From the NCBI GenBank assembly GCA_905236165.1, contig CAJOOC010000111.1:2924-66923 (forward strand): a DNA stretch of 64,000 bases, read 5' to 3'. Of this stretch, positions 1,175 through 52,450 are shown one piece after another. The number at the start of each line of letters is the position of its first letter. Within the stretch, counting starts at the first letter, position 1. Both the position numbers and the translations under genes were made by a program. Source of the stretch: an uncultured Prevotella sp. (GTDB lineage Bacteria; Bacteroidota; Bacteroidia; Bacteroidales; Bacteroidaceae). The notes beneath the pieces are model-generated. The model saw only the letters and a list, made by a program, of their open reading frames with translations. It was not told the origin of the DNA and searched no databases.

Positions 1175-1956
1175 TACGTTTCATCGATACCCATATACAC
1201 CTTGACGGTGAAGAGTATGATGCTGATCGCCAGCAGGTAGTATCACGTGCCGTAGCCTCTGGAGCAGAGATGCTCTTCGTACCGGGCATCAACCTCGCTT
1301 CGGTAGGAACGGTGAAAGATGTTTGTGCTACCTATCCCGATGTGTGTCGGGGTATGATAGGCCTCCATCCCGAGGATGTGAAGGCGGACTACAGGGAGGT
1401 GCTTGCCGAGCTGAGGACCCATCTTGACGACATCCCTTGGATAGCCATAGGCGAGATAGGTCTTGACTACTACTGGTCCCGCGAATTTGAGAACGAGCAG
1501 CAGGAGGCGTTCGAGGTTCAGGTGGAGTGGGGCAGTGAACGCTCCCTTCCGCTGATGATACACAGCCGTAAGGCCCAGAACGATATAGTGCATATCCTTC
1601 GCGGCAAACAAGGAGTGCGTGGCGTGTTCCATTGCTTTACGGGCAACGCTCATGAGGCTGAGGAACTGCTTTCTTTTGACGGTTTCTGTCTGGGCATCGG
1701 TGGTGTGCTGACATTCAAGAAGAGTAACCTTCCTGAGACTCTGGCTGCTGCAGTACCTTTGCAGCGCATTGTGCTTGAGACGGATGCTCCCTATATGGCT
1801 CCCGTACCCCACAGAGGAGAGCGAAACGAATCGTCTTTTATAGTTAATATAATAAACAGACTGGCAGAGGTTTATAATGTCTCACCTGAAGAAGTGGCAC
1901 AAGTTACTACACGTACTGCAAAAAAGATGTTTCAAATTAACGAATTAACAAATTAA
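1171..1956 (+). CDS. tatD: TatD family deoxyribonuclease
   Basis: DTHIH, GLHP, GEIGLDY, HSR, HCF, ETDAPY motifs. Confidence 0.95.
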   Translation: MIRFIDTHIHLDGEEYDADRQQVVSRAVASGAEMLFVPGINLASVGTVKDVCATYPDVCRGMIGLHPEDVKADYREVLAELRTHLDDIPWIAIGEIGLDYYWSREFENEQQEAFEVQVEWGSERSLPLMIHSRKAQNDIVHILRGKQGVRGVFHCFTGNAHEAEELLSFDGFCLGIGGVLTFKKSNLPETLAAAVPLQRIVLETDAPYMAPVPHRGERNESSFIVNIINRLAEVYNVSPEEVAQVTTRTAKKMFQINELTN

Positions 1957-1960
1957 CGAA
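1933..1960 (+). repeat. 8-bp micro-array (CRAATTAA) containing the tatD stop codon
   Basis: caaattaa cgaattaa caaattaa cgaa. Confidence 0.9.
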
Positions 1961-2110
1961 CCCCGAGCATAGCGACTATAAAGAATTGCCCGTAGTTGCC
2001 CCAGCGGGGCGGGCGAATTCTTTAAGAAGCATTGCGAGCGGGTCGGCGAAAGCCAATTAACAAATTGGCATCGCCGAACTTCTTAATGCTATAGTTAACA
2101 TATTAAAGAA

Positions 2111-4165
2111 TTGAAGAATTGTTTTTACATACTCCTCTTGTCTGTGCTCCTTGTGGGCTGTGATGCTGCGTCCTACGTTAAGAAGGGCGATAAGGCACGT
2201 GCCATAGGAGAATACTATATTGCAGCTGATTACTACCGCAAGGCGTACAGCAAGACCCCTTCGGCAGAGAAGGAACTGCGCGGTCAGCGTGCTCTCATGA
2301 TGGCAGAGTGCTATGGTCACATTTATAATACTCAGAAGGCCCTCGGAGCCTATCGTAATGCCATAAGATACAATATTGCTACCCCTGGCGACAGGCTTGC
2401 CTACGCTCGTCTGCTGCTAAAGAATGGCGACTATAAGGCTGCGCTGACAGAGTTTGAGCAGCTTCGTGACTCCATGCCTGACAATGTGTTAGTGAAGAAC
2501 GGGCTTCTCTCTGCCACTAAGGCTCCTGAATGGAAGAAGGAGGGCTCTGCATACAAGGTGAAGAAGATGGATGTATTCAATTCCCGCCGCGATGATTATT
2601 CCCCCTGTCTTGGCGGTGAGGACTATGACAAGCTATACTTCACCTCTACCCGCAATGATGCTGACGGCGATGAGCTCAGCGGAGTGACAGGCATGAAGGC
2701 TGCTGACATCTTTTTTTCAGAGATGGACGACAAAGGCAAATGGAGTCGTCCCGAGCCCATCGGTACGGGTCTGAACAGCGAGAATGACGAGGGAGCCTGC
2801 TATATCACCCCTGACGGTCAGGAGATGTATCTCACCCAGTGTACGTCCAACCCTACCTATCCCCGATATGCCCAGATAGTAGTGGCGAAGCGTTCAGATG
2901 CCTCATGGGGAAAGCCCTCGGCATGCGAAATTACGAAGGACACCCTCTCTGTCTTTGCTCATCCAGCTGTCTCGCCCGATGGTGAGTGGCTGTATTTTGT
3001 CAGCGACATGCCCGGCGGCAATGGCGGCTATGACATCTGGCGCTCACGCATCACATCGATGGGACCGATGGGTGTACAGAACCTTGGAGAGCCCATCAAT
3101 ACCCCGGGCAACGAGATGTTCCCCACCTTCAGGCCCAATGGCGACTTCTACTTCTCTTCAGACGGCCATCCCGGCATGGGTGGTTTGGATATCTTCATTG
3201 CCAAGATAGGAAAAGATGACCGCTATCACATAGAACACCCCGGGTATCCACTAAATTCTATGGCTGATGACTTCGGAATGACCTTCGAGGGTCAGCACAA
3301 CCGAGGCTTCTTCTCTTCCAGCCGGGGCGACGGCAGGGGAAACGACCATATCTTTGCATTTGAGAACCCCGAGGTGGTTCAGACCATCAAGGGATGGGTC
3401 TACGAGATTGACGGCTATGAGCTACAGGCAGCCGACGTGCGCATAGTAGGAAGCGATGGCACCAATGAGCGCATGGGCGTGAAGAGCGATGGTAGCTTTG
3501 AGTATCTTCCCACACCTGGAGTGGAATATATCATCCTGGCTACCTGCAACGGTTTCCTAAACCATAAGGAGGAATTGAAGGTTCCGACGGGGGTGAAAGA
3601 ATCTGAGACGTACACCCTGCAGTTCCCCTTGGCCAATATCTCCGTTCCGGTATTGGTCGACAATATCTTCTTTGAGTTTGACAAGGCCCGCCTGCTGCCT
3701 TCCAGCGCGCTGGCCCTTGACTCGCTGGTGCTGTTGCTCAACGAAAACCCCAACATCACCATCGAACTGTCCGCTCATACCGACTACAAGGGTAGCAACG
3801 ACTACAACAAGACTCTCTCCCAACGACGCGCCGAGGCTGTTGTGGAATACCTTATTGGCAAGGGCATCCCTTCAGAGCGACTCACTCCTGTGGGCTATGG
3901 TGAGGATAATCCCAAGCGCATAAGGAAAAAGGTGGCTGAGCGCTATGCATGGCTCAAGGAAGGCGACGTGCTTACTGAGGAGTTCATACAGAAGCTGAAG
4001 CCTGCCGAGCAGGAGACGGCCAATGCCCTGAACCGCAGAACGGAATTCAAGGTGTTGCGTACCACATATAATATGTTTGACGAGAACGGCAACCTGAAGA
4101 ATGTGCCCAAACCCCGCAAACCGCAAATTGACGAGGATGCAAACGATGAATTCTTCTTTGAATAG
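2111..4165 (+). CDS. PorE-like lipoprotein (TPR + PD40 propeller + CarboxypepD-like + OmpA domain)
   Basis: Lipobox LLVGC, TPR helices, LYFTS/LYFVSD/FYFSSDG PD40 repeats, OmpA motif LSAHTD..G...YN..LSQRRA and NRRTEF; TTG start. Confidence 0.85.
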   Translation: MKNCFYILLLSVLLVGCDAASYVKKGDKARAIGEYYIAADYYRKAYSKTPSAEKELRGQRALMMAECYGHIYNTQKALGAYRNAIRYNIATPGDRLAYARLLLKNGDYKAALTEFEQLRDSMPDNVLVKNGLLSATKAPEWKKEGSAYKVKKMDVFNSRRDDYSPCLGGEDYDKLYFTSTRNDADGDELSGVTGMKAADIFFSEMDDKGKWSRPEPIGTGLNSENDEGACYITPDGQEMYLTQCTSNPTYPRYAQIVVAKRSDASWGKPSACEITKDTLSVFAHPAVSPDGEWLYFVSDMPGGNGGYDIWRSRITSMGPMGVQNLGEPINTPGNEMFPTFRPNGDFYFSSDGHPGMGGLDIFIAKIGKDDRYHIEHPGYPLNSMADDFGMTFEGQHNRGFFSSSRGDGRGNDHIFAFENPEVVQTIKGWVYEIDGYELQAADVRIVGSDGTNERMGVKSDGSFEYLPTPGVEYIILATCNGFLNHKEELKVPTGVKESETYTLQFPLANISVPVLVDNIFFEFDKARLLPSSALALDSLVLLLNENPNITIELSAHTDYKGSNDYNKTLSQRRAEAVVEYLIGKGIPSERLTPVGYGEDNPKRIRKKVAERYAWLKEGDVLTEEFIQKLKPAEQETANALNRRTEFKVLRTTYNMFDENGNLKNVPKPRKPQIDEDANDEFFFE

Positions 4166-5399
4166 GCTCCCAGAGGATTTCGCGGCCTACACCCGTGAAC
4201 TGTTTGGCGAAGAACGTTGGGAAAGGTATCTCGCATCTTTCAACGATACTCCCCCAGTGTCCATACGTCTGAACCCATTCAAGGCAACTGCCGGCATTGG
4301 GATACCTTTATCGGGAACGGACAAGATGCCTGTCCCGTGGTGCTGGAACGCCTGGTATCTTGCCGAACGCCCTGACTTTACCGCTGATCCTCTGCTCCAT
4401 GCAGGCACCTATTACGTTCAGGAGGCGGCATCGATGTTCCTTGATGAGATGATGCGACAGCTGCCAATGCCTGTTGAGGGCAGAGTACTGGATTTGTGTG
4501 CCGCACCAGGTGGCAAGTCAACACTTATGAGAGCCGTCCTTGCCGATGAAGTGACGCTCTATAGCAACGAGCCCAACAGAAAGCGTGCAAACATCCTGAT
4601 GGAGAATATGCAGAAGCAGGGCCACCATAACGTTGTTGTTACCAACAACTTCCCCGCTGACTATCAGAGGGCAGGCATGCTCTTCGACATGATACTCACC
4701 GATGTGCCCTGTTCCGGTGAGGGGATGTTCAGGAAGGATGCCGGCTCCATAGAAGAATGGTCGCTCAATGGCGTGATGAAATGTCAGCAGCTGCAGCGTG
4801 AGATAGTAGAGACGATATGGCCGTGCCTGAAAGAGGGCGGCATACTTATATATAGCACATGCACCTTCAATACCCGTGAGGATGAGGAGAACGTAAAATG
4901 GATAATGGACACGCTTGGGGCTTCACCCGTTGCTGTCTCTGTTCAGCCAGAATGGCAGATTACTGGTTCTCTTCTCAAGGGCTTCGACGCTCCGGTATAC
5001 CGCTTTATCCCTGGTATCTCTAAGGGCGAGGGTCTTTTTATGGCTGTGATGCGGAAGACGGGTGGAGCGACGTTGATGGAGAAGACGGGCAGACATGCTG
5101 CAAACGGTCTGCATATCCTCTCTGATGGTAATCCCAAGGTCACCGACAAGGCTCCCGCACACGCTGAGGCATTGCTGGCAGCTCTTGACAGGAGCAGATA
5201 CCCTATGGTGGAGCTGACCCTTGACGATGCCTTGAGATACCTTCATCGTGAGGCGCTGGTGTTGCCGCCTGATACGCCGAGGGGTTTTGTCATAGTGACA
5301 TATCAGAACATCCCGCTCGGATTTATGAAGAATATCGGTACAAGGGCCAACAATCTTTACCCGCAGGAGTGGAGGATAAGGAGAGGGGTTGACCATTGA
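4146..5399 (+). CDS. RsmB/RsmF (NOL1/NOP2) rRNA m5C methyltransferase
   Basis: YYVQEAAS, LDLCAAPGGKST, DVPCSGEG, YSTCT; start uncertain (ATG 4146 or TTG 4158). Confidence 0.9.
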   Translation: MNSSLNRLPEDFAAYTRELFGEERWERYLASFNDTPPVSIRLNPFKATAGIGIPLSGTDKMPVPWCWNAWYLAERPDFTADPLLHAGTYYVQEAASMFLDEMMRQLPMPVEGRVLDLCAAPGGKSTLMRAVLADEVTLYSNEPNRKRANILMENMQKQGHHNVVVTNNFPADYQRAGMLFDMILTDVPCSGEGMFRKDAGSIEEWSLNGVMKCQQLQREIVETIWPCLKEGGILIYSTCTFNTREDEENVKWIMDTLGASPVAVSVQPEWQITGSLLKGFDAPVYRFIPGISKGEGLFMAVMRKTGGATLMEKTGRHAANGLHILSDGNPKVTDKAPAHAEALLAALDRSRYPMVELTLDDALRYLHREALVLPPDTPRGFVIVTYQNIPLGFMKNIGTRANNLYPQEWRIRRGVDH

Positions 5400-5415
5400 A
5401 CATTGACCATTGAAA
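5388..5415 (+). repeat. 7-bp micro-array (RTTGAMM) containing the methyltransferase stop codon
   Basis: gttgacc attgaac attgacc attgaaa. Confidence 0.9.
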
Positions 5416-5441
5416 GTATTACATAAAAAAAGAATAACGCT

Positions 5442-6155: not shown

Positions 6156-6171
6156 AGTGTGTAATAGAATT

Positions 6172-6711
6172 ATGAAGAAAATACTGTTTAGCATAGCATT
6201 CATTGGTGTAGTGTTGGCATGCTCCACTACTCCCGAGCGTAGCATTCAGCCACTTATTGAGGGTGCGGTGATGGGTGCCTTGGATAAGCCTGCCTCATAT
6301 CAGCCCATCCAGACAGAGATAGACAGTGCCTTCTCCCCACAGGATGATGCTGACCTGTTCCGCTTGCTGTCAGAGATAGCAGACCTCAACCAGGAACTCA
6401 GCCTCACGATAGGCAAGGGGTCTGTTGTCCTGACTGGCGACGTTAAGGAGAAAATCAAGGACAAGACGGAGAAAGTGGCACAGATACTCCAGCGTAAGAA
6501 GACGTTCATCGGCTATAAGGTCACACATACCTTCAGCGCAGAGAATAATCTTGGCGAGAACGTGAAGGAAAGCAATATCTATCTGGTAAACAAAGATGTC
6601 AGCAAGATACTCTTCTCAATGACGCCAGAGGACTATGCTCAGCTGCAGCAGGCCATTGTCACGCTGCAGGAGAAATTCCAGAAGCGGCTCGAAGTTCCCG
6701 AGGAACAATGA
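6172..6711 (+). CDS. Hypothetical lipoprotein
   Basis: MKKILFSIAFIGVVLAC lipoprotein signal; no recognised domain. Confidence 0.7.
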   Translation: MKKILFSIAFIGVVLACSTTPERSIQPLIEGAVMGALDKPASYQPIQTEIDSAFSPQDDADLFRLLSEIADLNQELSLTIGKGSVVLTGDVKEKIKDKTEKVAQILQRKKTFIGYKVTHTFSAENNLGENVKESNIYLVNKDVSKILFSMTPEDYAQLQQAIVTLQEKFQKRLEVPEEQ

Positions 6712-6763
6712 CCTGTTTCCTTTCCTGTCCATAAACAATGACCTGTTTCCTTTCCTGTCCATA
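6704..6763 (+). repeat. Perfect 30-bp tandem duplication spanning the stop codon
   Basis: AACAATGACCTGTTTCCTTTCCTGTCCATA x2. Confidence 0.95.
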
Positions 6764-6878
6764 ATTAGTGTGGTCATCGGTCTTGATGACTACGGTCGAT
6801 GTCGCCCCTGTTGAAAATGTAACATGTCAACGAAAGTTAAATCTTAGGTTTATCTCCGTATTGTGTGAGATTTTTTAG

Positions 6879-6886
6879 TACCTTTG
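6879..6886 (+). promoter_or_regulatory. Bacteroidota sigma-A -7 box for typA
   Basis: TACCTTTG matches TAnnTTTG, 46 nt upstream of the ATG. Confidence 0.7.
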
Positions 6887-11152: not shown

Positions 11153-11192
11153 TAATTAGTAACTGATAACTGGTAACTAGTAACTGTAAACT
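11153..11192 (-). repeat. 7-bp micro-array (plus strand TAACTRN) containing the stop of the HsdR_N gene
   Basis: taattag taactga taactgg taactag taactgt. Confidence 0.9.
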
Positions 11193-11640: not shown

Positions 11641-11741
11641 ATTGACCGTTGACCATTGACCGTTGACCATTGACCATTCTTTGGTCATAGGCGCAACACT
11701 TCATTGCGCCAGCCTAATGTTCAATCTTCAATGTTCAATGA
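11641..11741. repeat. Inverted pair of 7-bp arrays (RTTGACC x5 / TCAATNT x4) flanking a small hairpin
   Basis: 11641-11675 and 11715-11741; GGCGCAA...TTGCGCC at 11690-11710. Confidence 0.9.
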
Positions 11742-12652: not shown

Positions 12653-15600
12653 ATGCAGATAGGAGAACTACTGTCGCTTTACGGCAAGTCCGGGTCGGTG
12701 AAGGCTCTTGCTTCGCTGTTATCAAAGAAGAGGATACGCAAGGCTGCCCTGAGTGGTCTTACGCAGAGTTCTCTTGCCGTAAACTTCGCTTCCGTGCTGC
12801 GTGGCAAGGTGCCTCCCGTGCTGTTCATCATGCGCGATGCCGACGAGGCTGGCTATCTCTATCAGGACATGAGCCGCATGCTTGGCGAAGAGCGGGTGAG
12901 CCTCTTCCCTTCGTCCTACAAGCGTGCCGTGAAGTTCGGACAGCGCGATGCGTCGCTTGAAATAATCCGCACAGAGACGCTCACTCGCATCACATCCCAG
13001 GCGGAGCAGAGTGGAGAAGAACCGCAGCATGGATATGCCATTGTCACGTATCCTGCTGCGCTGGCCGAGATGGTGATATCACGCCATGACCTCGACGACC
13101 GCCATCTCTCCCTGAAGAAAGCCCAGACGATACCTCTTACTATGGTGGAGCGCCAGCTGCGCGAGCTGGGGTTCTCCGAGCGCGACTACGTCTATGAGCC
13201 CGGACAGTTTGCCATTCGCGGCTCCATCCTCGATGTATTCTCCTTCAGCAGCGAAGACCCTTACCGCATAGACTTCTTCGACGACGACATCGACAGCATG
13301 CGCACCTTCGATGTGGAGACGCAGCTCTCGAAGGAGATGCTCGATGCGGTCAATATCGTGCCGCAGATATCCTCCACGGAAACGGAGAAGCAGCCCTTCC
13401 TCGACTTCCTTTCCTGTGAGACGGTCATAGTGTCGCAAGACATCAGATACGTCACCGATGCCATAGACTATATATATAAGGAGGGTTTCTCGAAGCAGGC
13501 TCTGACAGACCGCCTTGCTTCAGCCACGGAGATGGACAAGGCCGCGATAACTCGCGAACTGACGGCCTCGCTCAACCTCTGTCCCGCCTCGCGCTTCTCG
13601 CAGGCTGTGGCAGCGATGAGACAGATAGAATACTCCTCCGGCATGAAGGATGCGTCTGACTATCAGGCTTCTGTGACATTCCAGAGCACGCCCCAGCCGC
13701 TTTTTCACAAGAATTTCGAGCTGCTGGCCGAGACGATGCACGACTACTACTCCCGTGGCTACAAGATATACATTCTCTCCGACAGCGACAAGCAGCACGA
13801 ACGCCTTGCCGAAATCTTCGCCAGCCTGAAGAGCGGCGACGGTTACGTCAGCGACATCCTGGACAAATGGCAGGTGAAAGGCACCCTTCACGAAGGCTAC
13901 ATCGACGATGAGCTGAAGCTGCTACTCTTCACCGACCATCAGATTTTTGAGCGTTTCCATAAATACCAGCTCAAGGGCCAGTCGGCCAAGCGCGGCAAGA
14001 TGGCTCTCACCATGAAGGAGCTGCAGGAGATGGAGCCCGGCGACTTCATCGTTCACGTGGACTTCGGCATAGGCAAGTTCGGCGGTCTGGTGCGTGTTCC
14101 CGTCACGAGCCCCGCTGGTAAGGGCGCGGTAGAGTATCAGGAGGTGATACGCATCATCTATGCCAAGGGCGACAAGGTGGATGTGAGCATTCATTCGCTA
14201 TACAAGATAAGCAAATACCGCCGTTCCGACGTTGGTGAGCCGCCTCGCCTGAGCACCCTCGGTACTGGCGCATGGGACCGCATCAAGGAACGTGCTAAGA
14301 AGCGCATCAAGGATATTGCGCGCGACCTCATCAAGCTCTATGCCAAACGTCGCCACGAAAAGGGCTTTGCCTTCTCTGCCGATACCTACCTGCAGCATGA
14401 GCTGGAGGCCTCGTTCCTCTATGAGGATACACCTGACCAGATGAAGGCCACGCAGGACGTGAAGCACGATATGGAGCAGGCCCGCCCTATGGACCGCCTG
14501 GTGTGCGGCGATGTGGGATTCGGCAAGACCGAGGTGGCCATGCGTGCTGCCTTCAAGGCCGCCTGTGACGGTAAGCAGGTGGCAGTCCTGGTGCCCACCA
14601 CCGTCCTTGCCTTCCAGCACTACAAGACCTTCTCGAAACGCCTGCAGGGTCTGCCCGTCACCGTCGACTACCTCACCCGTGCCCGCACGCCGAAGCAGGT
14701 GAAGGAGCTGCAGGCCAACCTGGAGTGCGGCAAGGTTGACATACTGGTGGGAACGCACCGCATGCTCACCAAGACGGTGAAATGGAAGGACCTGGGGCTG
14801 CTCATCATCGACGAGGAACAGAAATTCGGCGTCTCTACTAAGGAGAAGCTTCGCCAGCTGAAGACCAATGTCGACACGCTCGCGATGTCGGCCACACCCA
14901 TTCCGCGCACCCTGCAGTTCTCGCTGATGGGAGCCCGCGACATGAGCATCATGCGCACCCCGCCACCTAACCGTCAGCCCATTGACACGCAGGTGGCCAC
15001 GTTCTCGCCGGAGCTCGTCAGCGATGCCATAAACTTCGAGATGAGCCGCGACGGACAGGTGTACTTCGTGTGTCACAGGATTGCCACACTCACCAAGATG
15101 AAGGAAATCATAGAGCGCCACGTGCCTGACTGCCGCATCGCTGTCGGTCACGGACAGATGAAGCCCGAGGAGCTGGAGAAGATTATCATGGGCTTCATAA
15201 ACCACGACTACGACGTGCTGCTCTCCACCACCATCGTGGAGAACGGCATCGACATCCCCAATGCCAACACCATCATCATCAACGATGCCAACCACTTCGG
15301 CCTGAGCGACCTGCACCAGATGCGAGGCAGGGTAGGGCGCAGCAACCGTAAGGCCTTCTGCTACCTGCTTGCGCCGCCGCTGGCCTATCTGCCTACGGAG
15401 AGCCGCCGACGACTGGAGGCCCTCGAGACCTTCGCCGACCTTGGTTCGGGCTTCAACCTCGCCATGCAAGACCTCGACATCCGCGGTGCGGGCAACCTGC
15501 TGGGAGCGGAGCAGTCAGGATTCATGGAAGACCTGGGCTATGAGACCTACCAGAAGATACTCTCGCAGGCCGTCAACGAGCTGAAGAACGATGAGTTCCA

Positions 15601-18103: not shown

Positions 18104-19309
18104 ATGCCAATAATATCTACCCGCGGCGTGGAGATGCCCGAGTCTCCTATCCGTAAGTTAGCACCTCTGGCCGCTGCTGCGAAGAAACGCGGCATCAGGG
18201 TGTATCACCTGAATATCGGTCAGCCCGACCTGCCCACGCCGCAGGTGGCGCTGGACGCTCTGAAGAATGTGAACCGCTCCATCCTGGAGTATTCACCCTC
18301 GCAGGGTTACCTCTCCTACAGGGAGAAGCTGGTGGGTTACTACGCCAAGTATGACATCAAGGTGTCGCCCGAGGATATCATCATCACCAGCGGCGGCTCT
18401 GAGGCCATACTCTTTGCCTTCATGGCCTGCCTGAACCCTGGCGACGAGATTATAGTGCCCGAACCCGCCTACGCCAACTATATGGCCTTTGCCATCAGCG
18501 CCGGAGCGAAGATCCGCACTATCGCCACCACCATCGACGAGGGCTTCTCCCTGCCGAAGGTGGAGAAGTTCGAGGAGCTTATCAACAGCCGCACCCGAGC
18601 CATCATGATATGCAACCCCAATAACCCTACGGGATATCTCTATACACGCCGCGAGATGAACCAGATAAGGGATCTGGTGAAGAAATATGACCTGTACCTC
18701 TTCTCTGACGAGGTGTACCGTGAGTATATCTACACGGGTTCGCCATATATCAGCGTATGCCATCTTGAGGGCATTGAGGATAACGTGGTGCTTATCGACT
18801 CTGTGTCAAAGCGTTACAGCGAGTGCGGCATCAGAATTGGAGCCCTCATCACGAAGAATGCCGAGATACGCCAGGCCGTGATGAAGTTCTGCCAGGCACG
18901 TCTGTCACCACCGCTCATAGGTCAGATAGTGGCTGAGGCATCGCTCGATACCCCCGAGGAATATATGAGGGAGGTGTATGACGAGTACGTGGAGCGCAGG
19001 AAGGTGCTCATCGACGGTCTGAACCGCATACCAGGTGTCTATTCGCCCATCCCCATGGGAGCCTTCTACACTATGGCGCAGCTGCCCGTGGACGATGCCG
19101 AGAAGTTCTGCCGATGGTGTCTGGAGAAGTTCAATTATGAGGGCGAGACGGTGATGATGGCTCCCGGAGCAGGTTTCTACACCACTCCCGGTGCCGGCAT
19201 CAACGAGGTGCGTATAGCCTACGTGCTGAAGAAACCCGACCTGGAGCGCGCCCTCGTGGTGCTGAGAAAAGCCCTGGAGGAGTATCCGGGAAGGACGGTG
19301 ACGAATTGA
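18104..19309 (+). CDS. Class I/II PLP-dependent aminotransferase (aspartate aminotransferase-like)
   Basis: LNIGQPD, CNPNNPTG, SDEVY, SVSKRYS..GIRIG. Confidence 0.93.
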   Translation: MPIISTRGVEMPESPIRKLAPLAAAAKKRGIRVYHLNIGQPDLPTPQVALDALKNVNRSILEYSPSQGYLSYREKLVGYYAKYDIKVSPEDIIITSGGSEAILFAFMACLNPGDEIIVPEPAYANYMAFAISAGAKIRTIATTIDEGFSLPKVEKFEELINSRTRAIMICNPNNPTGYLYTRREMNQIRDLVKKYDLYLFSDEVYREYIYTGSPYISVCHLEGIEDNVVLIDSVSKRYSECGIRIGALITKNAEIRQAVMKFCQARLSPPLIGQIVAEASLDTPEEYMREVYDEYVERRKVLIDGLNRIPGVYSPIPMGAFYTMAQLPVDDAEKFCRWCLEKFNYEGETVMMAPGAGFYTTPGAGINEVRIAYVLKKPDLERALVVLRKALEEYPGRTVTN

Positions 19310-19346
19310 ACATTGAACATTGACCATTGATTATTGAAGATTGAAC
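19305..19346 (+). repeat. 7-bp micro-array ATTGANN x6 filling the whole spacer
   Basis: attgaac attgaac attgacc attgatt attgaag attgaac. Confidence 0.92.
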
Positions 19347-23700: not shown

Positions 23701-24205
23701 GTGTAACTTCCGCACTATGGGTAAGAAATTCGGTAAGCTGATGAAGGATGTGAACAACGCTGTCATGGCGATGTCGCAGGAGCAGATTTCCGAGTTGGAG
23801 CAGAACGGCACCATCACTCTCGATGTGGCCGGACAGCCCACACTCATTGAGGCTGTCGACGTTGAGATAATCTCTGAGGACATCCCCGGCTGGACCATTG
23901 CCCAGGAAGGCAAAATCACAGTAGCCCTCGACATAGAGATTACGCCAGAGCTGAAGAACGAAGGCATGTCGCGCCTCATCATCAAGAGAATACAGGCCAT
24001 GCGTAAGGAGTCAGGCTTTGAAATCACCGACCGCATCAGCGTGGAGATAGAGGAGCAGGCCGACCTTCGAAAGGCTGTGGAGGCCTTCGGCGAGCATATC
24101 GCTTCGCAGGTGCTGGCCAACTCTCTCACTATGGGCGACGCTGCTGAAGGCATCGAAACCGACTTCGGCGACTTCAAGGCGAAGGTGAGGATTGTTAAGA
24201 GTTAA
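20765..24205 (+). CDS. ileS: Isoleucine--tRNA ligase (type 2)
   Basis: EGPPSANGHPGIHH, WTTTPWTLPSN, GTGIVHIAP, WNLSRSRYWG, KMSKR. Confidence 0.97.
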   Translation: MKFKEHKSLNLVETNEQMLGEWEKQDVFHKSISEKEGCPEFVFFEGPPSANGHPGIHHVMGRTIKDTFLRYKTMKGYQVKRKAGWDTHGLPVELSVEKSLGITKEDIGKKISVDDYNDACRKNVMMYTDEWSQLSSKMGYWVDLEHPYITYDIKYIETLWWLLKQLYNKGLLYKGYTIQPYSPAAGTGLSSHELNQPGCYRDVKDTTVTAQFRVTDKAPVDTDLPTYILAWTTTPWTLPSNTALCVGPKIDYVAVKGNNPYTDEEAVYILAEARLGAYFNVNENENNVEILWRGTGADLLDLHYQQLMPWVKPCELQDGEVVVKEQDAFRVIPGDYVTTDDGTGIVHIAPTFGADDAKVAKDAGIPSLFIIDKAGDTRPMVDFQGKYFVKDDIDEAFLGKCVNESYWKHSGDYVKNAYDPKYNKDGKYDEKAAAKDMDLNVVICLEMKEEGSAFKIEKHVHNYPHCWRTDKPVLYYPLDSWFIRSTAKKDRMYELNKTINWHPESTGTGRFGKWLENLNDWNLSRSRYWGTPLPIWRNRDTKQEKCIGSLEELYNEIEKAVAAGVMASNPLKDKGFVPGDMSQENYDRIDIHRPYVDDIKLVGDDGSVLTRELDLIDVWFDSGAMPYAQIHYPFENKDLIDKGQAYPADFIAEGVDQTRGWFFTLHAIATMVFDSVAFKNVISNGLVLDKNGIKMSKRLGNVINPFECIGQYGTDPVRWYMVTNSSPWDNLSFDPDGVKEVISSFFIKLYQAYSFFTLYANVDGFEYKEADVPFEERPDFDRWLLSELNTLVKSVDEYLASYDVTPATRLIQSFVIDKLSNWYIRLNKKRFWGGGMTQDKLSAYQTLYTCLDTLARLIAPVAPFYADQLFRDLNEATGKDSAISVHLAQFPEANGAYIDTQLEQAMQTAMQVTSMVLSLRKKVKIPVIQALQMISIPAGDAELRQSIERMASVILAETNVKELKFIEEGSGMQLVKKVKCNFRTMGKKFGKLMKDVNNAVMAMSQEQISELEQNGTITLDVAGQPTLIEAVDVEIISEDIPGWTIAQEGKITVALDIEITPELKNEGMSRLIIKRIQAMRKESGFEITDRISVEIEEQADLRKAVEAFGEHIASQVLANSLTMGDAAEGIETDFGDFKAKVRIVKS

Positions 24206-24256
24206 GAGTTAAGAGTTGAGAGTTAAGAGTTGATAGTTGATAGTTATCAGTTAAAA
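24194..24256 (+). repeat. 7-bp micro-array GTTRANA x9 containing the ileS stop
   Basis: gttaaga x3 gttgaga gttaaga gttgata x2 gttatca gttaaaa. Confidence 0.95.
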
Positions 24257-24687: not shown

Positions 24688-25356
24688 ATGAAGAAGGGTG
24701 TGCTCTACACCTTATTTATAATATTACTGCTTGTCATAGACCAGAGCATCAAGATATGGGTGAAGACACACATGTGTCTGCATGAGAGCCGTCACATCAC
24801 CGACTGGTTCTATCTCTCGTATATCGAGAACAACGGCATGGCCTATGGCATGACCTTCATTCCGAAGTATGCGCTGAGCATCTTCAGACTCGTTGCCTGC
24901 TGCGCCCTGATGTGGTACATACGCAGGGAGATTCTTCGCGGGGCACGCACCATCTGGCTCATACTGCTCTCGATGGTGCTGGCCGGAGCGGCTGGCAACC
25001 TCATAGACTGTATGTTCTACGGACTGATATTCAATGGGGCATCATCCTACTATACGTCATTCTTCGTAGACTTCGGCACAGGCTATGCTCCGTTCCTGCA
25101 GGGAAAGGTGGTGGACATGTTCTACTTCCCCCTGATAGTGACTACATACCCCGACTGGTTCCCACTATGGGCTGGAGAGCCGTTCATCTTCTTCGCTCCG
25201 ATATTCAATTTCGCCGATGCATGCATCTCCGTTAGCGTAGTGGCGATACTGCTGTTCTGCAGAAGAGAACTGACGCCGGAGGAGGGGGAGCCCGGGAGCA
25301 CGGAATCACAGAATAATGGTATTACGGAACCACGAAATAACGATATCACGGAATAG
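24688..25356 (+). CDS. lspA: Lipoprotein signal peptidase II
   Basis: DQSIK, ENNGMAYG, GAAGNLID, VVDM, IFNFAD; alternative TTG start at 24676. Confidence 0.92.
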   Translation: MKKGVLYTLFIILLLVIDQSIKIWVKTHMCLHESRHITDWFYLSYIENNGMAYGMTFIPKYALSIFRLVACCALMWYIRREILRGARTIWLILLSMVLAGAAGNLIDCMFYGLIFNGASSYYTSFFVDFGTGYAPFLQGKVVDMFYFPLIVTTYPDWFPLWAGEPFIFFAPIFNFADACISVSVVAILLFCRRELTPEEGEPGSTESQNNGITEPRNNDITE

Positions 25357-28748: not shown

Positions 28749-28812
28749 ACCTCTCCCGACCTCCCCAAGGGGGAGGAGGGTTAATTCGTTAATTTGTTAA
28801 TTCGTTAATTCG
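28749..28812 (+). repeat. CT-rich/GA-rich palindrome followed by 8-bp array GTTAATTY x4
   Basis: acctctcccgacctccccaagggggaggag then gttaattc gttaattt gttaattc gttaattc. Confidence 0.9.
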
Positions 28813-39823: not shown

Positions 39824-39895
39824 GTCTGCGATACCATCGCAGACATTTCGACCATTCGATAATTTGTTAATTCGTTAATTTGTTAATTCGTCAAT
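39824..39895 (+). repeat. REP-like palindrome copy 2 followed by 8-bp GTTAATTY array
   Basis: GTCTGCGATACCATCGCAGACATTTCG (39824-39850); array 39858-39895 abutting the cmk ATG. Confidence 0.9.
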
Positions 39896-40573
39896 ATGGT
39901 AATAGCAATAGACGGCCACTCTTCCTGTGGCAAAAGCACAATGGCCAAGAAGCTGGCCAAGGATTTAGGGTATATCTACGTTGACACGGGAGCGATGTAT
40001 AGGGCTGTGACGCTTTACTGCATGCGTAACGGTATTATCGCAGATGGCAAGGTGGATAATAAAAAACTGACTGAGGCGATGCCTCTCATCAACGTGTCCT
40101 TCAAACTGAATTCTTCAACGGGACTGCCTGAGACGTATCTTGGCGAAGAATGTGTGGAGAACGTGATACGCACCATAGAGGTAAGCAACAACGTGTCTCC
40201 TATTGCCGCTATTCCACTCGTAAGAGAGGCGATGGTGAGCCAGCAGCGACAGATGGGACTCAACCAGGACATCGTCATGGACGGAAGGGATATAGGCACA
40301 ACGGTCTTTCCTAATGCCGACCTGAAAATCTTCGTTACGGCATCGGCACCAGTACGGGCACAGCGCCGCTACGACGAATTGAAGGCAAAGGGCATGCCGG
40401 CTGACTATGAGGATATTCTCAAAAACGTAGAGGAGCGCGACTACATCGACTCCCACAGAGAGGTGTCGCCACTTCGCCAAGCACCAGATGCGCTCCTGCT
40501 CGACAACTCTGAGATGACAATAGAGCAACAGCAGCAATGGCTCATGCAACAAGTAGACCGCTTACGCAAATAA
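39896..40573 (+). CDS. cmk: Cytidylate kinase
   Basis: [35 protein letters not shown]. Confidence 0.96.
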
Positions 40574-45165: not shown

Positions 45166-45166
45166 G

Positions 45167-46808: not shown

Positions 46809-46811
46809 GTG

Positions 46812-46853
46812 GTCTTCGTTTTCGTAGGGACGCAGTCCCACTTCGTCTTCGTC
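46812..46853 (-). repeat. 6-bp RACGAA array with an embedded GTAGGGAC/GTCCC hairpin
   Basis: gtcttc gttttc gtagggacgcagtcccac ttc gtcttc gtc. Confidence 0.85.
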
Positions 46854-47801: not shown

Positions 47802-47837
47802 ATTGAATATTGAAGGATGAAAGTTGAAGATTGAAAA
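47802..47837 (-). repeat. 7-bp micro-array (plus strand RWTGAAN x5)
   Basis: attgaat attgaag gatgaaa gttgaag attgaaa. Confidence 0.8.
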
Positions 47838-48305
47838 TTACGCAAGCATTTCAGCTATTTTCGTTTCTATCTCAGCGAATGGTGTTGTGGCCGAATATCG
47901 TGCCACGACTTTGCCAATCTTGTTGACGAGGAACTTTGTGAAGTCTTCTGTTATCTCTCCTGGCTGCTTCTCTGTGAGGTATTTGAAGAGTGGGTCGGCA
48001 TCATCGCCGTTCACCTTTACCTTCTTGAAGCGTGGAAACTCCGTCTCGTATGTGTCCTTGCAGAACTGATGTATCATCTCGTCCGTTCCGGGACACGACT
48101 TTGTGGGTTGGTTAGAGGGGAAGTCGAGCACCTCAAAGCCCTGTGCATGGTATTTCCGGTAGATAGCCTGAAGATCGGCATATTGTGGGGTTTGTGTACT
48201 CTTGATGGCTGTGTTTACTATCAGTACAACCTCGTTAGCGTAGAGGTTAAGTGGAACGGCATTGCCTTTGCGGTCTTTTACCGTGATTTCGTGTATTGAG
48301 TTCAT
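47838..48305 (-). CDS. Glutathione peroxidase-fold protein lacking canonical catalytic residues
   Basis: LIVNTA..., TPQY, LDFP.NQ, PG, F.K..VNG..A.PLFKYL, FTKFLV; SKCG motif reads IKST. Confidence 0.85.
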   Translation of the reverse strand: MNSIHEITVKDRKGNAVPLNLYANEVVLIVNTAIKSTQTPQYADLQAIYRKYHAQGFEVLDFPSNQPTKSCPGTDEMIHQFCKDTYETEFPRFKKVKVNGDDADPLFKYLTEKQPGEITEDFTKFLVNKIGKVVARYSATTPFAEIETKIAEMLA

Positions 48306-48327
48306 TTTTTTAGTGATATATAAATAA

Positions 48328-48380
48328 TGGTGGTTAAGAAAACCGTTACAAAAATACTAACTTATTTCTTAACCACCAAA
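48328..48380 (-). promoter_or_regulatory. Promoter (-33 TTTG, -7 TATTTTTG) bracketed by a perfect 14-bp inverted repeat
   Basis: TGGTGGTTAAGAAA (48328-48341) / TTTCTTAACCACCA (48365-48378); -7 box at 48349-48356. Confidence 0.7.
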
Positions 48381-48468
48381 TGTTTTATGCTTTTTTAAGG
48401 TGGACAGCGTGGAGTTTCTGCAAAATATGACTGATTTTGAAGCTGTCCGTACCTGCTATCCTTTGTCG

Positions 48469-49503
48469 TTAATGTCTGCCCATGCCGCCGGAGTGTGAGC
48501 CTCCTGACATACCGCCTGAGCTACGGGTGCCTCCACTGAAGCTACCGCCAGAGCTGCGGGTGCTGCCTCCGAAACTGCTGCCTGAACTGCGAGAACCACT
48601 GAAATTACTGCTTCTTGAACCCATGCTGCCAGAGCTGCGGCTGCCCATATTCATGTTGTTGCCTCTTGAACCCATGCTGCCAGAGCTGCGGCTGCCCATA
48701 TTCATGTTGCTGCCTACGGTGGTGCGGGTACTGCTGCGATAGTCGCCGCGAGAGGAACCCATATTGCTGCGTGATGTGCCCATATTGCCGCGTGTGTAGC
48801 TCTGTGTCTCGTTGCGGGTGATGTTGCGGTATTCGTTGCGGGAGCCGCTCATGCGGTCGCGGTTGATGTTTGAACCGCGGCGCATTCCTGCTGAGCTGCG
48901 CGAACCCTTATTGTAATTACCATCGTAGCTGTGGTTGCTGCCGTTGTGGGAGGCATGTCCCATGCGCCTGTCGTAGTTGTCGCGCATGCCGTGATGGGTG
49001 CCGCTGCCGCGATAGTGATGTGTGCGGTCAACATACCAGGAGCGGCCACCGTTCATCCTCCATCCATGATTTCCGCGATATGACACGTAAACGGTGGGAC
49101 GGCTGAAGTAGAACACGTCGCGATGGGGGTAGTAGGAATAGATGCCGAAGTGCCAGTAGCCTGCGTCCCAATAGAGTGGGCGATAGAAGTAGTTTCTTGC
49201 GCAATAAGCTGCATACTGCCAGTCGTAGAGGATATATTCCATGTCGATGTTGCGACGGGTCCAGTATACGGAGTACACATCATCAACGGTGGTGACGCTC
49301 ATGAGATAGTCGAGGTTTATCTCGTAGGCTGCATCGTACTGCTCGGCGTTGAGGTTCAGCTCATAGGCCATCTTGTCGGTAAGGAAGAGGGCCTGTTCGC
49401 GAGCCTGCTCATAGGTCATCGCCGATGTTGCGGTGAATGACATTACTGTGCAGAGAAATGCAACTAAGCGTGTCATGAGGGATGTCCTAAGATTCTTTTT
49501 CAT
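48469..49503 (-). CDS. Secreted hypothetical protein, Tyr/Trp-rich domain plus G/S/R low-complexity tail
   Basis: Signal peptide, ALFLTDKMAYELNL...YEINLDY, duplicated NMNMGSRSSGSMGSR. Confidence 0.8.
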   Translation of the reverse strand: MKKNLRTSLMTRLVAFLCTVMSFTATSAMTYEQAREQALFLTDKMAYELNLNAEQYDAAYEINLDYLMSVTTVDDVYSVYWTRRNIDMEYILYDWQYAAYCARNYFYRPLYWDAGYWHFGIYSYYPHRDVFYFSRPTVYVSYRGNHGWRMNGGRSWYVDRTHHYRGSGTHHGMRDNYDRRMGHASHNGSNHSYDGNYNKGSRSSAGMRRGSNINRDRMSGSRNEYRNITRNETQSYTRGNMGTSRSNMGSSRGDYRSSTRTTVGSNMNMGSRSSGSMGSRGNNMNMGSRSSGSMGSRSSNFSGSRSSGSSFGGSTRSSGGSFSGGTRSSGGMSGGSHSGGMGRH

Positions 49504-49560
49504 AATTGTATCGCTTTGTTGGTTTGACGTTTCTTGTTCGCTATATCTTTATTTCTGGTG

Positions 49561-49568
49561 CAAAGATA
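49561..49568 (-). promoter_or_regulatory. -7 box
   Basis: TATCTTTG on the minus strand upstream of 49503. Confidence 0.6.
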
Positions 49569-49623
49569 CTCACAATTATGAATATATGAAAGGGGATTTT
49601 CCCTAAATGGAGAAGGAAAATCC

Positions 49624-51807
49624 CTATCTGAGGCAGCTGCCTATCTGTTTGGCTATCATGGAGCGTTGTTTCTGCGTCTCCTGCATTTCGGCGATGAGTT
49701 TGAGCTGCCTTTCAGGTTCATCGGCAGCATCGGCTATTTCCTGCCTGAGCTGCCTGAGGCGTTGCTGCAGGAATTCATTGCGGAAGTCGAGCAGAAGGTG
49801 GTTAGCCTTATCGAGGAGCAAGAACGGACTGGGCACGTCTTTCTTCCGTATTTCTTCTTCTTCATTCTCATCAGCGTCTTCGTCTTTAGTGTCAGGATGT
49901 TCGCTGGTCTTACCATAGCCTCTCAGCACCTCGTCAGCAGTCAGTCGAATGGCAAGCGACGATATCTCATAGTCGGGATGCAGCGTGAAATGCTCCTGGC
50001 TGCTCACATTCTCGTCCCAGTTGTGGGCTACGGCCTCTTCCAGTATCTGGTTGTAAAGCGGAATACTGAAAGCAAGGTTGTCCAGGGAAAGATTATATCT
50101 GATGTATTCTGCAACTGTTAGTGATGTAGTCTGACCATCCTCTGTCTCAACGTTCTCAAGGCATATATCGTCGGCATTGGTGAAGAGGAACTTCATGATG
50201 AGGTCAGAGACGGAGAGGTTGACCCTGCTGGCCGCTGGCCGTCTGTGTTGTTGCGGGTTCTGGACAAAGTGGGGGAGAGGAGTCGTTGCTACCGAAACCT
50301 GCGTATTCGTTGCTGCTGAAGTCTGAGTGTTTGTGACAGTTGGTTGCTGTGTCGCAGGCTGTTGTGGCGTGTCAGCATTCCGCTGACTCAGTTCGGTTTC
50401 GGCTCTTGCAAAGTCGTTGTTCTGCAAGGTCTGCTGACGCTGCTCCTCCTTGCGCTTCTCGTCGCGATAGTTCTTGATGAACTCATTCATCTTGGCCGTG
50501 AGAACCTGCTCGCTATACCCAAGGCGTGAGGCGCAGTCTTGTATGTAGGAGGCGCGGATGATGGGGTCGCCGATGACGCTAACGCTCTCTATGATGCTCG
50601 ATACGGCATTGGAACGCTCATGAGGGTCGGTGACGCCGTTAAGCAATACCGATGTCTTGAATGATATGAAGTCGGCCTGATGATCCTTGATATACTCCCT
50701 GAACTGCTCTGCGGTATGCTTCCTTGCATACTCGTCGGGGTCCATACCGTCGGGTAGCAGCATCACCTTTACGTTCATGCCCTCCTTCAGCAGCATGTCG
50801 GTGCCGCGCAGAGCTGCCTTGATGCCGGCAGCATCGCCGTCATAGAGCAACACGATGTTGCTTGTGAAGCGGTGCAGAAGGTGTATCTGGTGTTCGGAAA
50901 GGGCTGTGCCAGAGTTGGCTACAACGTTTTCTATGCCGCATTGGTGCATGGAGATGACGTCGGTATATCCCTCTACCATATATACGAGGTTCTCCTTCGT
51001 GATGGCCTTCTTTGCCTGGAAGATGCCGTAGAGCTCGTGGTCTTTATGATAGATGTCAGAGTCGGGGGAGTTGACGTATTTCTGGTTCACACCCTTCGTG
51101 CGCGAGTCGAGCACACGGCCTCCGAAGGCTACGGTCTTGCCGCTGACGTTGAGCCAAGGGAAGATGACGCGTCCTGAGAAGCGGTCTATGAGATTGTTGC
51201 CGTCCCGCTGCGTCGAGCCCTCGTCCTGCTTGCTCTCCTTGGCATAGCAGAGGCCCGTCTTGAGGAGGTATTCGGCTTTGAAGCCTTTCTTCTGAGCCGC
51301 CTTGTTCATGGCGTTCTTCTCGCTCAGGCAGAAACCCAGGCGGAATTTCCTAATGATGTCCTCACGGATGCCTCGCTGGCGGAAGTACTGCAGACCGATG
51401 GCACGCCCGTCTACATCGTTGAAGAGAATGTCCTGGAAATATTCGGCAGCCCAGTCGTTGACGATATACATCGACTCGCGGTCTGACTGCTCCTGCTTCT
51501 GCTCCTCGGTAAGCTCGCGCTCCTGTATCTCGATGTTGTATCTTCGGGCAAGCCAGCGAAGGGCATCGGGATAGGTGAGCTGCTCCATCTTCATGATGAA
51601 CCCAACGCTGTCTCCTCCCTCGCCGCATACGAAGCAATGGCAGGTGCGCCTTGCCGGCGAGACATAGAAGGATGGGGAGTGGTCATCGTGGAATGGGCAC
51701 AGACCGCGGTAGTTCGCACCTACTTTCTTAAGAGATACGAATTCAGATACTACATCGACAATGTCGGCAGCATCCTTGATGCGTTCTACGGTTGGCCTGT
51801 CAATCAT
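49624..51807 (-). CDS. dnaG: DNA primase
   Basis: CPFH...SPSF...CFVCG zinc finger, FGGR, KYVNSP, VEGYTDV, YDGDAAG, DPDE. Confidence 0.96.
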   Translation of the reverse strand: MIDRPTVERIKDAADIVDVVSEFVSLKKVGANYRGLCPFHDDHSPSFYVSPARRTCHCFVCGEGGDSVGFIMKMEQLTYPDALRWLARRYNIEIQERELTEEQKQEQSDRESMYIVNDWAAEYFQDILFNDVDGRAIGLQYFRQRGIREDIIRKFRLGFCLSEKNAMNKAAQKKGFKAEYLLKTGLCYAKESKQDEGSTQRDGNNLIDRFSGRVIFPWLNVSGKTVAFGGRVLDSRTKGVNQKYVNSPDSDIYHKDHELYGIFQAKKAITKENLVYMVEGYTDVISMHQCGIENVVANSGTALSEHQIHLLHRFTSNIVLLYDGDAAGIKAALRGTDMLLKEGMNVKVMLLPDGMDPDEYARKHTAEQFREYIKDHQADFISFKTSVLLNGVTDPHERSNAVSSIIESVSVIGDPIIRASYIQDCASRLGYSEQVLTAKMNEFIKNYRDEKRKEEQRQQTLQNNDFARAETELSQRNADTPQQPATQQPTVTNTQTSAATNTQVSVATTPLPHFVQNPQQHRRPAASRVNLSVSDLIMKFLFTNADDICLENVETEDGQTTSLTVAEYIRYNLSLDNLAFSIPLYNQILEEAVAHNWDENVSSQEHFTLHPDYEISSLAIRLTADEVLRGYGKTSEHPDTKDEDADENEEEEIRKKDVPSPFLLLDKANHLLLDFRNEFLQQRLRQLRQEIADAADEPERQLKLIAEMQETQKQRSMIAKQIGSCLR

Positions 51808-51823
51808 CGTGAGGGCGCAGCGA

Positions 51824-52384
51824 TTATCTTTGGCGCTTGTATACGAAGATACCCTTGCTGTTCTCCAACGCGAGGCTATCGGCCCCAAGGCTCAGTACGT
51901 CGAATGTGTCGGTGTTCAGGATAATCTGAGCGTTCGACATCTGCCACTGGGTGTAGGGATTGGTCTCGGCGGTGGCATTGCTCTCCACTACTCCGTTCTC
52001 CATTATCTGGAAGTTGCGGGCCAGCGAGGTCCACTTGCCAAGGAGAGTGTTGAGGTTCACAAGTTTCTTTACCGACATGTTCTCCTCACCCTTTACGGCG
52101 GTCAGCGTCACCTTATCGCCGGCAAAGAGCCCCCCCTGGATGTCGCTCTCTATTGAGTCGAGGTTCATGGAGAACGACTTCGTCTTGCCGTCCTCAAGGA
52201 TGATGGTGAGCATGTGCATTGTTGTTGACTCGTCGATGATGCCATAGACGGCTGTGTCGGGCACCGTAACGACCGCTACGGAGTCGCTGTCGTTGCCATC
52301 ACCCTGCTGGGTGCTGTTTCCCGTGCATGCCGCAAAAAACAGTGCCAGCACACCAAAGAGGCTTAGGTTTAGTAGATGTTTCAT
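51824..52384 (-). CDS. Lipoprotein (lipocalin-like C-terminus)
   Basis: Lipobox FAAC, LLGKW, beta-rich. Confidence 0.65.
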   Translation of the reverse strand: MKHLLNLSLFGVLALFFAACTGNSTQQGDGNDSDSVAVVTVPDTAVYGIIDESTTMHMLTIILEDGKTKSFSMNLDSIESDIQGGLFAGDKVTLTAVKGEENMSVKKLVNLNTLLGKWTSLARNFQIMENGVVESNATAETNPYTQWQMSNAQIILNTDTFDVLSLGADSLALENSKGIFVYKRQR

Positions 52385-52410
52385 TGTTTTATAATATAAG
52401 GTGGTTTGCC

Positions 52411-52450
52411 AATTCGTTAATTTGTTAATTTGTTAATTCGTTAATTCGTT
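52411..52450 (-). repeat. 8-bp array (AACRAATT x5 on minus) containing the mazG stop
   Basis: plus strand aattcgtt aatttgtt aatttgtt aattcgtt aattcgtt. Confidence 0.92.

What the first reader, a model, noticed from the sequence alone, without database searches (positions are those of the whole stretch)
1933..52450. Unrelated proteins TatD and MazG share the repeat-derived C-terminus INELTN
TatD (+, stop 1954-1956) ends FQINELTN and MazG (-, stop 52425-52427) ends KRINELTN. Both tails are translations of the same ATTAACGAATTAACAAATTAA array, which supplies the stop. Stops of the rsmF-like gene (VDH*), HsdR_N (YSY*), GT2 (IEH*), the aminotransferase, ileS (VKS*), lspA and bamD also lie inside arrays, nine genes in all. 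Inference: the arrays overwrite native 3' ends rather than just landing downstream.
Basis: seen in the sequence. Interest (0 to 1): 0.75.

Follow-up and report, generated by a model that had tools for sequence, protein, structure and literature searches.

The report
Repeat insertions rewrite protein tails
Two unrelated proteins of a rumen Prevotella end in the same six amino acids because separate copies of an abundant 8-base DNA repeat sit in the last codons of both genes and supply the stop, which is likely a tolerated side effect of repeats inserting near gene ends rather than a functional tag.

Summary
Confirmed. TatD and MazG both end INELTN, read from separate copies of an octamer array AATT[AG]AC[AG] (163 copies in this Prevotella genome). 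Six of 1,712 called proteins end INELTN and 20 end LTN, the commonest C-terminal trimer; 124 of 1,775 called genes have their stop inside a 6-9-mer array. No TatD or MazG orthologue examined ends INELTN. INELTN is what one of three reading frames gives before the array's first in-frame TAA; the other frames (ELTN*, xN*) are used too. Overwriting is real for part of the list: one gene elsewhere keeps its native 14 codons and TAA stranded behind the insert. IleS (same length in 21 of 24 orthologues), BamD and the aminotransferase are barely changed; LspA is borderline. The nearest genome has different repeat tails at the same gene ends (MazG KVKSEE*; 0 of 12 shared sites same family), which argues against a tag. 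Repeats overlapping stops are in print (PMC4679880, PMC4692102), and this scan noted them on other DNA. New here: the scale, evidence for insertion, and re-use of the same gene ends.

The parts
1171..1956 (+). TatD-family gene; last 7 codons (QINELTN) and TAA come from the octamer array
   Evidence: nearest orthologue ends MFSL*
1931..1960 (+). Octamer array with the family's usual TTC[AG]AATT start; third TAA (1954-1956) is in frame
1957..2060 (+). About 100-nt repeated hairpin module that follows the array (27 blastn rows in the genome, partial ones included); no Rfam match
   Evidence: z -3.8 and -4.3
2054..2090 (+). Short second octamer run and an inverted piece of the same module; likely right end of the insert
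   Evidence: sequence compared with module copies; boundary inferred
2091..2106 (+). Likely remnant of native intergenic DNA, matching bases 9-27 after the TatD stop in G300
   Evidence: score 25 against null maximum 22: weak
52425..53219 (-). MazG gene; ends RINELTN* from the octamer array
   Evidence: G300 ends KVKSEE* from a different repeat
52411..52450 (-). Octamer array of 5 units carrying the MazG stop; doubled to 88 bp in one conspecific contig
5389..5414 (+). Heptamer array (TTGA[AC]CA) holding the rsmF-like stop, VDH*
11153..11192 (-). Heptamer array (CAGTTAC-type) holding the HsdR_N stop, VYSY*
11716..11740 (-). Heptamer array (CATTGAA-type) holding the GT2 stop, VIEH*; inverted partner array at 11641-11678
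19305..19346 (+). Heptamer array starting 2 nt before the aminotransferase stop; tail essentially not overwritten
24194..24254 (+). Heptamer array (GTTAAGA) over the ileS stop; protein length as in 21 of 24 orthologues
25299..25354 (+). Degenerate 24-bp duplication in the long lspA tail; borderline, not the octamer family
54059..54093 (-). Heptamer array (TTGAAAA-type) starting 3 nt before the bamD stop; G300 has a different heptamer array at the same place

Best explanation
TatD and MazG share INELTN because separate copies of a genome-wide octamer array lie in their last codons and supply the stop, likely as neutral by-products of arrays inserting at gene ends. Shown: each unit of the strand AATTAACR holds one TAA, and an 8-base unit shifts frame each time, so a gene that runs into the array stops within three units; the three frames give xN*, [EK]LTN* and IN[EK]LTN*, and all are seen. 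Shown: the junction sits right after the last conserved residue (F in TatD, EAK in MazG), where relatives have 1-14 variable residues. Shown in one gene: the native tail and stop survive behind the insert. Inferred: arrays arrive as short modules with defined ends, in random frame, sometimes with a small local deletion (TatD); selection removes those that cut conserved residues; slippage then varies unit number. Inferred with less confidence (about 0.35): the modules spread through the same system as the four-helix-bundle and GxxExxY cassettes with repeat arms.
For: Frame use among the 26 forward octamer arrays that carry a stop: 6, 8 and 12 for first, second and third unit (hand count, one case ambiguous between second and third; chi-square p 0.34 against equal use). 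Over all 7- and 8-mer arrays 59 of 122 use the second or a later stop triplet. Orthologue tails vary and none is INELTN. Stop position kept in 2 of 19 penetrating cases against 247 of 434 controls. Gene g1566 (contig C77): native DKKKTGCLTTASLH* lies intact behind the array and matches G300's DKNKSSCLTTATFH* (score 89, null maximum 22). Defined ends: C at -2 in 94%, T at -4 and -3 in 59% and 66%, AATT closing about 70% of 163 arrays. MazG tolerates anything there: KVKSEE* in G300, another repeat tail in L137, and fusion to the next gene in 7 loci. The six INELTN proteins are unrelated: TatD, MazG, GH3, a PDZ protein, DeoC, a His-biosynthesis protein. The family is lineage-specific: 270 pattern matches here, 20 in G300, any match in 9 of 400 genus genomes.
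Against: The first stop triplet is over-used overall (39/16/13/1 for heptamers, 24/15/14 for octamers), so a share of arrays start on or next to the native stop; priming at the stop is not excluded. Only 1 of 19 penetrating cases showed a clearly stranded tail; in most, no homology was left at this distance. No excess of target-site duplications. No reverse transcriptase domain (PF00078) was found in the genome, which is 83% complete. The same gene ends carry arrays in both genomes more often than expected (odds ratio 4.0), which pure chance plus free space explains only in part. Neutrality is inferred; last residues change protein level up to fourfold in Mycoplasma pneumoniae (PMC7246954, passages).
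Confidence: 0.78

Rival explanations
1. The arrays grow in place by polymerase slippage from AT-rich seeds at or just after native stop codons, and small deletions later remove the native stop so that the frame runs into the array; nothing is inserted from elsewhere.
For: First stop triplet over-used. Several arrays begin exactly on a TAA shared with G300 (g15, g448, g1395). Unit number varies between strains (14-nt deletion at 11641; doubled MazG array). 113 different strings among 163 arrays. Slippage is the proposal cited in PMC4679880 (passages).
Against: In-place growth does not explain why 163 sites share one unit and one start phase, why the family is nearly missing from 391 of 400 congeners, why arrays come joined to shared hairpin modules, or the stranded native tail in g1566.
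Confidence: 0.12
2. INELTN, or [EK]LTN, is a selected C-terminal signal (degron, protective cap or binding tag) that the repeat spreads to chosen proteins.
For: LTN is the commonest C-terminal trimer, 20 against 0.46 expected. The third-unit frame is the largest class (12 of 26). The tail is shared within the species. C-terminal residues can alter degradation (PMC7246954, passages).
Against: 0 of 6 G300 orthologues of LTN proteins end LTN; G300's commonest ending is its own repeat-derived IEN. 0 of 12 doubly occupied gene ends share a family. Frame excess is not significant (p 0.34). Targets have nothing in common.
Confidence: 0.04
3. The arrays are kept for a role at RNA level (termination, processing, or translation start of the next gene), so position near gene boundaries is selected and the peptide is incidental.
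For: Array starts peak at the stop (54 in the 0-5 nt bin against 3-12 per bin beyond 24 nt) and array ends peak before called starts. Intergenic octamer arrays are strand-biased, 70 antisense against 12 sense between co-oriented genes. Same gene ends are re-used by other families. Similar placement is reported in PMC4679880 and PMC4692102 (passages).
Against: Most relatives have no array at these gene ends. Short intergenic gaps concentrate arrays near boundaries anyway. No RNA data were examined. This is compatible with the best explanation as to how the tails arise.
Confidence: 0.05
4. Assembly or binning artefact: repeats from elsewhere were mis-joined to gene ends.
For: The genome is fragmented (171 contigs, 83% complete) and public contigs break at these arrays.
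Against: Contigs from runs X13, X19 and X20 run gap-free through the TatD stop; X10 matches the MazG tail with its three differences all elsewhere, and one X2 contig spans the site.
Confidence: 0.01

Closest known systems
TAACTGA heptamer direct repeats of Beggiatoaceae, Cyanobacteria and Bacteroidetes (MacGregor 2015, PMC4679880; passages and section 15 read)
   Same: Dispersed short arrays near gene boundaries. One strand has stops in all frames, 13 ORFs end inside repeats, the other strand occurs in frame inside ORFs. Insertions are said to succeed at the periphery of proteins.
   Different: There one heptamer dominates; here several 7-, 8- and 9-mer families coexist, the INELTN family is an octamer with two unit variants and defined ends, and 124 of 1,775 genes are affected. 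The section read gives no displaced native tail or re-use of sites by other families.
GGGAATC and GGGGA(C/T)T heptamer repeats of Xanthomonas and Nostoc (Rehm et al. 2015, PMC4692102; passages read)
   Same: Strand-biased arrays within 50 bp of stops or starts, some overlapping the stop, some as inverted pairs; not at the same genes in sister species.
   Different: G-rich and quadruplex-forming; the arrays here are AT-rich.
GTAG and CGTC REPs (Di Nocera et al. 2013, PMC3733652; passages read)
   Same: Small repeats that often provide the stop codon of flanking ORFs or add residues at termini and inside genes.
   Different: REPs are short palindromes with a terminal tetranucleotide and, for GTAG, RAYT transposases; these are tandem arrays. 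RAYT was not searched.
23S rRNA intervening sequences with an S23p/IVP four-helix-bundle ORF (Coxiella, PMC4990558; passages read)
   Same: Heptamer repeats of variable number beside an IVP gene inside inverted arms. Two IVP genes here have inverted heptamer arms, and the C56 arms share the linker AATTATGATTAC with octamer arrays.
   Different: The cassettes here lie between protein genes, and the TatD and MazG arrays carry no ORF.
Rickettsia palindromic elements inside coding sequences (recalled, no call)
   Same: Repeat-derived peptides inside unrelated proteins; in-frame array insertions occur here too.
   Different: Those are longer palindromes; here short tandem units with frame-determined peptides.

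Membership tests
Dispersed intergenic 7-8-mer simple repeats (MacGregor/Rehm type) | Many short tandem arrays of one 7-8-base unit across the genome | tested here: met
   594 arrays: 284 of period 7, 173 of 8, 91 of 9, 46 of 6; 163 of the octamer family
Dispersed intergenic 7-8-mer simple repeats (MacGregor/Rehm type) | Placed near starts and stops, strand-biased, some overlapping the stop | tested here: met
Dispersed intergenic 7-8-mer simple repeats (MacGregor/Rehm type) | Patchy, lineage-specific distribution | tested here: met
   any match in 9 of 400 genus genomes; 270 matches here
Dispersed intergenic 7-8-mer simple repeats (MacGregor/Rehm type) | Stop-free strand found in frame inside ORFs | tested here: met
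   60 arrays inside called genes, 50 on the strand with fewer stops
MITE / REP | Target-site duplication | tested here: not met
   flank duplications no more frequent than in shuffled pairs, bar a few 5-7-mers; array flanks were used, not ends of composite inserts
MITE / REP | Stable stem-loop | tested here: inconclusive
   met by the attached module at 1957-2060, not by array flanks
MITE / REP | Cognate transposase (RAYT or IS) | not tested
   no search made
C-terminal degron or tag | Sequence conserved across orthologues or shared by a functional class | tested here: not met
C-terminal degron or tag | Changes turnover when appended | not testable with these tools
   needs reporter assay; no tmRNA was found in this incomplete genome for comparison
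IVP / GxxExxY cassette with repeat arms | Small ORF between inverted arrays | tested here: not met
   not at TatD or MazG; met elsewhere at C3 and C56 (PF05635, heptamer arms) and C136 (PF13366, 9-mer arms); no octamer-armed cassette seen
Retroelement product | Reverse transcriptase in the genome | tested here: inconclusive
   no PF00078 match, genome 83% complete

The most novel reading that the evidence does not exclude
An undescribed templated DNA-writing system, linked to the four-helix-bundle and GxxExxY cassettes with repeat arms, synthesises each array anew (fixed start phase, shuffled order of two unit variants, shared linkers and hairpins, no target duplication) and favours gene ends. 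It keeps re-tagging several per cent of the proteome, each lineage with its own signature tail (LTN here, IEN in the sister genome), and hits the same genes again with different repeats.
Probability: 0.2. Interest if true: 0.8.

Novelty: new variant of a known kind. Interest (0 to 1): 0.38.

Why it matters
How bacterial 7-8-base arrays arise is an open question, and slippage is the proposal cited in the paper read. This genome gives testable signs of insertion: defined ends, a native tail stranded behind an insert, and other repeat families at the same gene ends in the nearest genome. It also shows that 72 of 1,775 called genes (4%) have two or more final codons coded by repeats, a natural scan of which C-termini are dispensable. 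In practice, shared C-terminal motifs in repeat-rich Bacteroidota should not be read as sorting or degradation signals without a DNA check. The INELTN identity itself is likely of no functional importance.

Tried and rejected
Conserved tag: rejected. All nine genes overwritten: rejected for IleS, BamD, the aminotransferase; LspA borderline. Arrays always seeded at the native stop: rejected, 59 of 122 use a later stop triplet. Target-site duplication or flanking inverted repeats: no clear excess. Rfam family for the hairpin module: none at E 1. Reverse transcriptase and tmRNA: not found in an 83% complete genome. An octamer-armed protein cassette: none seen among 25 inverted pairs. An empty (array-free) TatD or MazG site in 8 conspecific runs: none listed, but contigs drop rare variants and the tables were cut. 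The two-sequence alignment misplaced the gene part and supports only the short downstream match. Literature: 9 full-text searches found no paper on Prevotella octamer arrays or repeat-derived shared C-termini in Bacteroidota; subscription journals are mostly not covered. Mrazek 2007 was seen only as cited in PMC4679880. No supplements were opened; Table 2 and Supplemental Table 5 of PMC4679880 may list comparable cases.
Full report
Observation. The window comes from a Prevotella-group genome (closest named TatD loci are Prevotella; conspecific reads come from gut metagenomes, several of them bovine) of 2.5 Mb in 171 contigs, 83% complete. TatD ends MFQINELTN* at 1954-1956 and MazG ends EAKRINELTN* at 52425-52427; both read the same 21-mer, which occurs 54 times in the genome. 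Six of the other seven genes named have their stop inside a heptamer array; lspA has only a degenerate 24-bp duplication that touches its stop.

Scale. I called 1,775 genes with a simple hexamer model of my own; stops are reliable for long genes, starts and short genes less so. TRF arrays of period 6-9 number 594, and 124 genes have their stop inside one, 72 with at least 6 nt and 47 with at least 12 nt of array before the stop. INELTN ends 6 of 1,712 proteins of 80 aa or more (0.0001 expected) and LTN ends 20 (0.46 expected). The six are TatD, MazG, a GH3 protein, a PDZ protein, DeoC and a histidine-biosynthesis protein. The octamer family has 163 arrays. An exact 20-base pattern matches 270 times here, 20 times in the nearest genome G300, and at all in 9 of 400 genus genomes.

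Why INELTN. Each AATTAACR unit holds one TAA and shifts frame, so a gene running into the array stops in unit 1, 2 or 3, giving xN*, [EK]LTN* or IN[EK]LTN*. The 26 forward arrays that carry a stop divide 6, 8, 12 by my hand count (one case could be second or third unit; p 0.34 against equal use). The opposite strand gives IR*, IC*, NSLIC* and NSLIR*. With TRF boundaries over both strands the first stop triplet is over-used (heptamers 39, 16, 13, 1; octamers 24, 15, 14), so the set mixes true overrides with arrays that begin on the native stop.

Orthologues. None of 27 TatD relatives, 80 further TatD loci, 26 complete MazG relatives of 27 or 78 complete MazG ends of 80 metagenome loci (two cut by contig ends) ends INELTN. 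After the conserved Phe of TatD and EAK of MazG relatives carry short, variable tails, and the arrays start exactly there. G300 (IleS C-terminal part 86% identical) has TatD MFSL* with no array and MazG EAKKVKSEE* from a GTGAAGA array. L137 has yet another repeat tail, and 7 loci fuse MazG to the downstream protein at the same junction. GT2, HsdR_N and rsmF-like tails differ from all near relatives found. IleS is the counter-example: same length in 21 of 24 orthologues.

Genome-wide comparison. I held 1.19 Mb of G300 (about half of a 71% complete genome) and took best tblastn hits: 666 genes hit, 506 kept after identity and end filters; orthology was not reciprocal and one paralogue pair maps to one locus. 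The stop position was the same in 247 of 434 array-free pairs, 9 of 17 where the array starts within 5 nt of the stop, and 2 of 19 where it reaches 6 nt or more into the gene (p 6e-5). Net length did not shift, median 0 to 0.5. Among 492 scorable pairs, 12 have an array near the stop in both genomes, 44 only here, 28 only in G300 and 408 in neither (odds ratio 4.0, p 7e-4; 3.3, p 0.013, when the downstream gap here is 30 nt or more). None of the 12 shares a unit within one mismatch. Tail tolerance is an uncontrolled confounder. G300's commonest ending in this set is its own repeat-derived IEN, and none ends LTN.

Insertion or growth in place. In g1566 (C77) the frame runs into the array and ends RINILTN*; 98 nt after the array begins a match to G300's tail, and the native DKKKTGCLTTASLH* with its TAA lies there in one open frame. 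This is 1 clear case of 19 examined. At TatD about 160 nt of array and modules separate the Phe codon from a weak match to G300's intergenic DNA, with the native last codons missing, which suggests insertion with a small deletion if G300 resembles the ancestor. Arrays have a fixed start phase and a preferred end, no clear target duplication, 113 different strings among 163, and a mild tendency of G and A units to alternate (AG 160, GA 155, AA 137, GG 97). They are often joined to shared hairpin modules in varying order.

Strains. Three of four runs cover the TatD stop without gaps; not all substitutions were listed, and the fourth contig ends at 1944. Run X10 has the identical MazG tail; run X2 has the array doubled, with the gene-side copy in place. 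A heptamer array at 11641 is 14 nt shorter in X6. The tails are therefore real and shared, and unit number is labile.

Possible engine. Two four-helix-bundle (PF05635) genes are enclosed by inverted heptamer arrays, one with an internal stop, and GxxExxY (PF13366) genes lie among 9-mer arrays. The linker AATTATGATTAC follows octamer units in 19 and GAGAATT-type heptamer units in most other of its 32 copies, including the C56 cassette arms. No reverse transcriptase domain was found. The link is circumstantial.

Known work. Repeats overlapping stops are described for TAACTGA heptamers (PMC4679880, passages and section 15), G-rich heptamers (PMC4692102, passages) and REPs (PMC3733652, passages). 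Heptamers beside an IVP gene are described in Coxiella (PMC4990558, passages). Last residues can change protein level up to fourfold (PMC7246954, passages), so small effects are possible. Earlier notes of this scan report similar arrays and cassettes on other DNA; nothing was on record for this genome or sequence.

Verdict. The shared hexapeptide is a frame by-product of a known kind of repeat. What remains of interest is the evidence for insertion and for repeated use of the same gene ends. Interest 0.38.

Noticed in passing
genome G000, e.g. contigs C119:22609, C88:13681 and 13735, C158:7954 and 8006, C28:2000: 60 arrays of period 7-8 lie inside called genes, 50 on the strand with fewer stops. 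Of 20 with a G300 hit, several are clear in-frame insertions (NNAQSLKLNAQSSKA; VNSQFSILNSQS); at C28:2000 G300 has a different peptide at the same site.
   Followed up: partly
L138, L139, L143-L147: MazG is fused in frame to the downstream protein (439-440 aa), the join falling right after EAK and running into a hydrophobic signal-like stretch.
   Followed up: partly
window 1957-2060: Repeated hairpin module of about 100 nt with a swappable central stem, set between octamer or heptamer arrays, sometimes in tandem; no Rfam match.
   Followed up: partly
G000 C3:12445-12978 and C56:23-650; C136:3398-3875; C33:9319-10166: Four-helix-bundle genes between inverted heptamer arrays (the C3 gene has an internal TAA) and GxxExxY genes with 9-mer arrays.
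   Followed up: partly
genome-wide; window 28780-28812 and 39854-39903: About 25 intergenic octamer arrays end 4-7 nt before a called start on the GTTAATT strand, which may shape translation initiation.
   Followed up: no
window 11641-11740: Inverted heptamer pair 37 bp apart between the end of GT2 and the start of the HsdR_N gene; one arm varies by two units between strains.
   Followed up: partly
genome-wide, e.g. G000 C77 about 13505-13530: A short module containing GGGACGTGG occurs 210 times and often abuts arrays.
   Followed up: no
window 48469-49503: 344-aa protein with 33- and 51-bp internal repeats and a GGMGRH end; a second called protein has the same ending.
   Followed up: no
window 6704-6764: Exact 30-bp direct duplication that includes the stop of the upstream gene.
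   Followed up: no
L218 (G300 C172): The G300 lspA appears frameshifted near its end and reads into the next gene's region; may be an assembly error.
   Followed up: no
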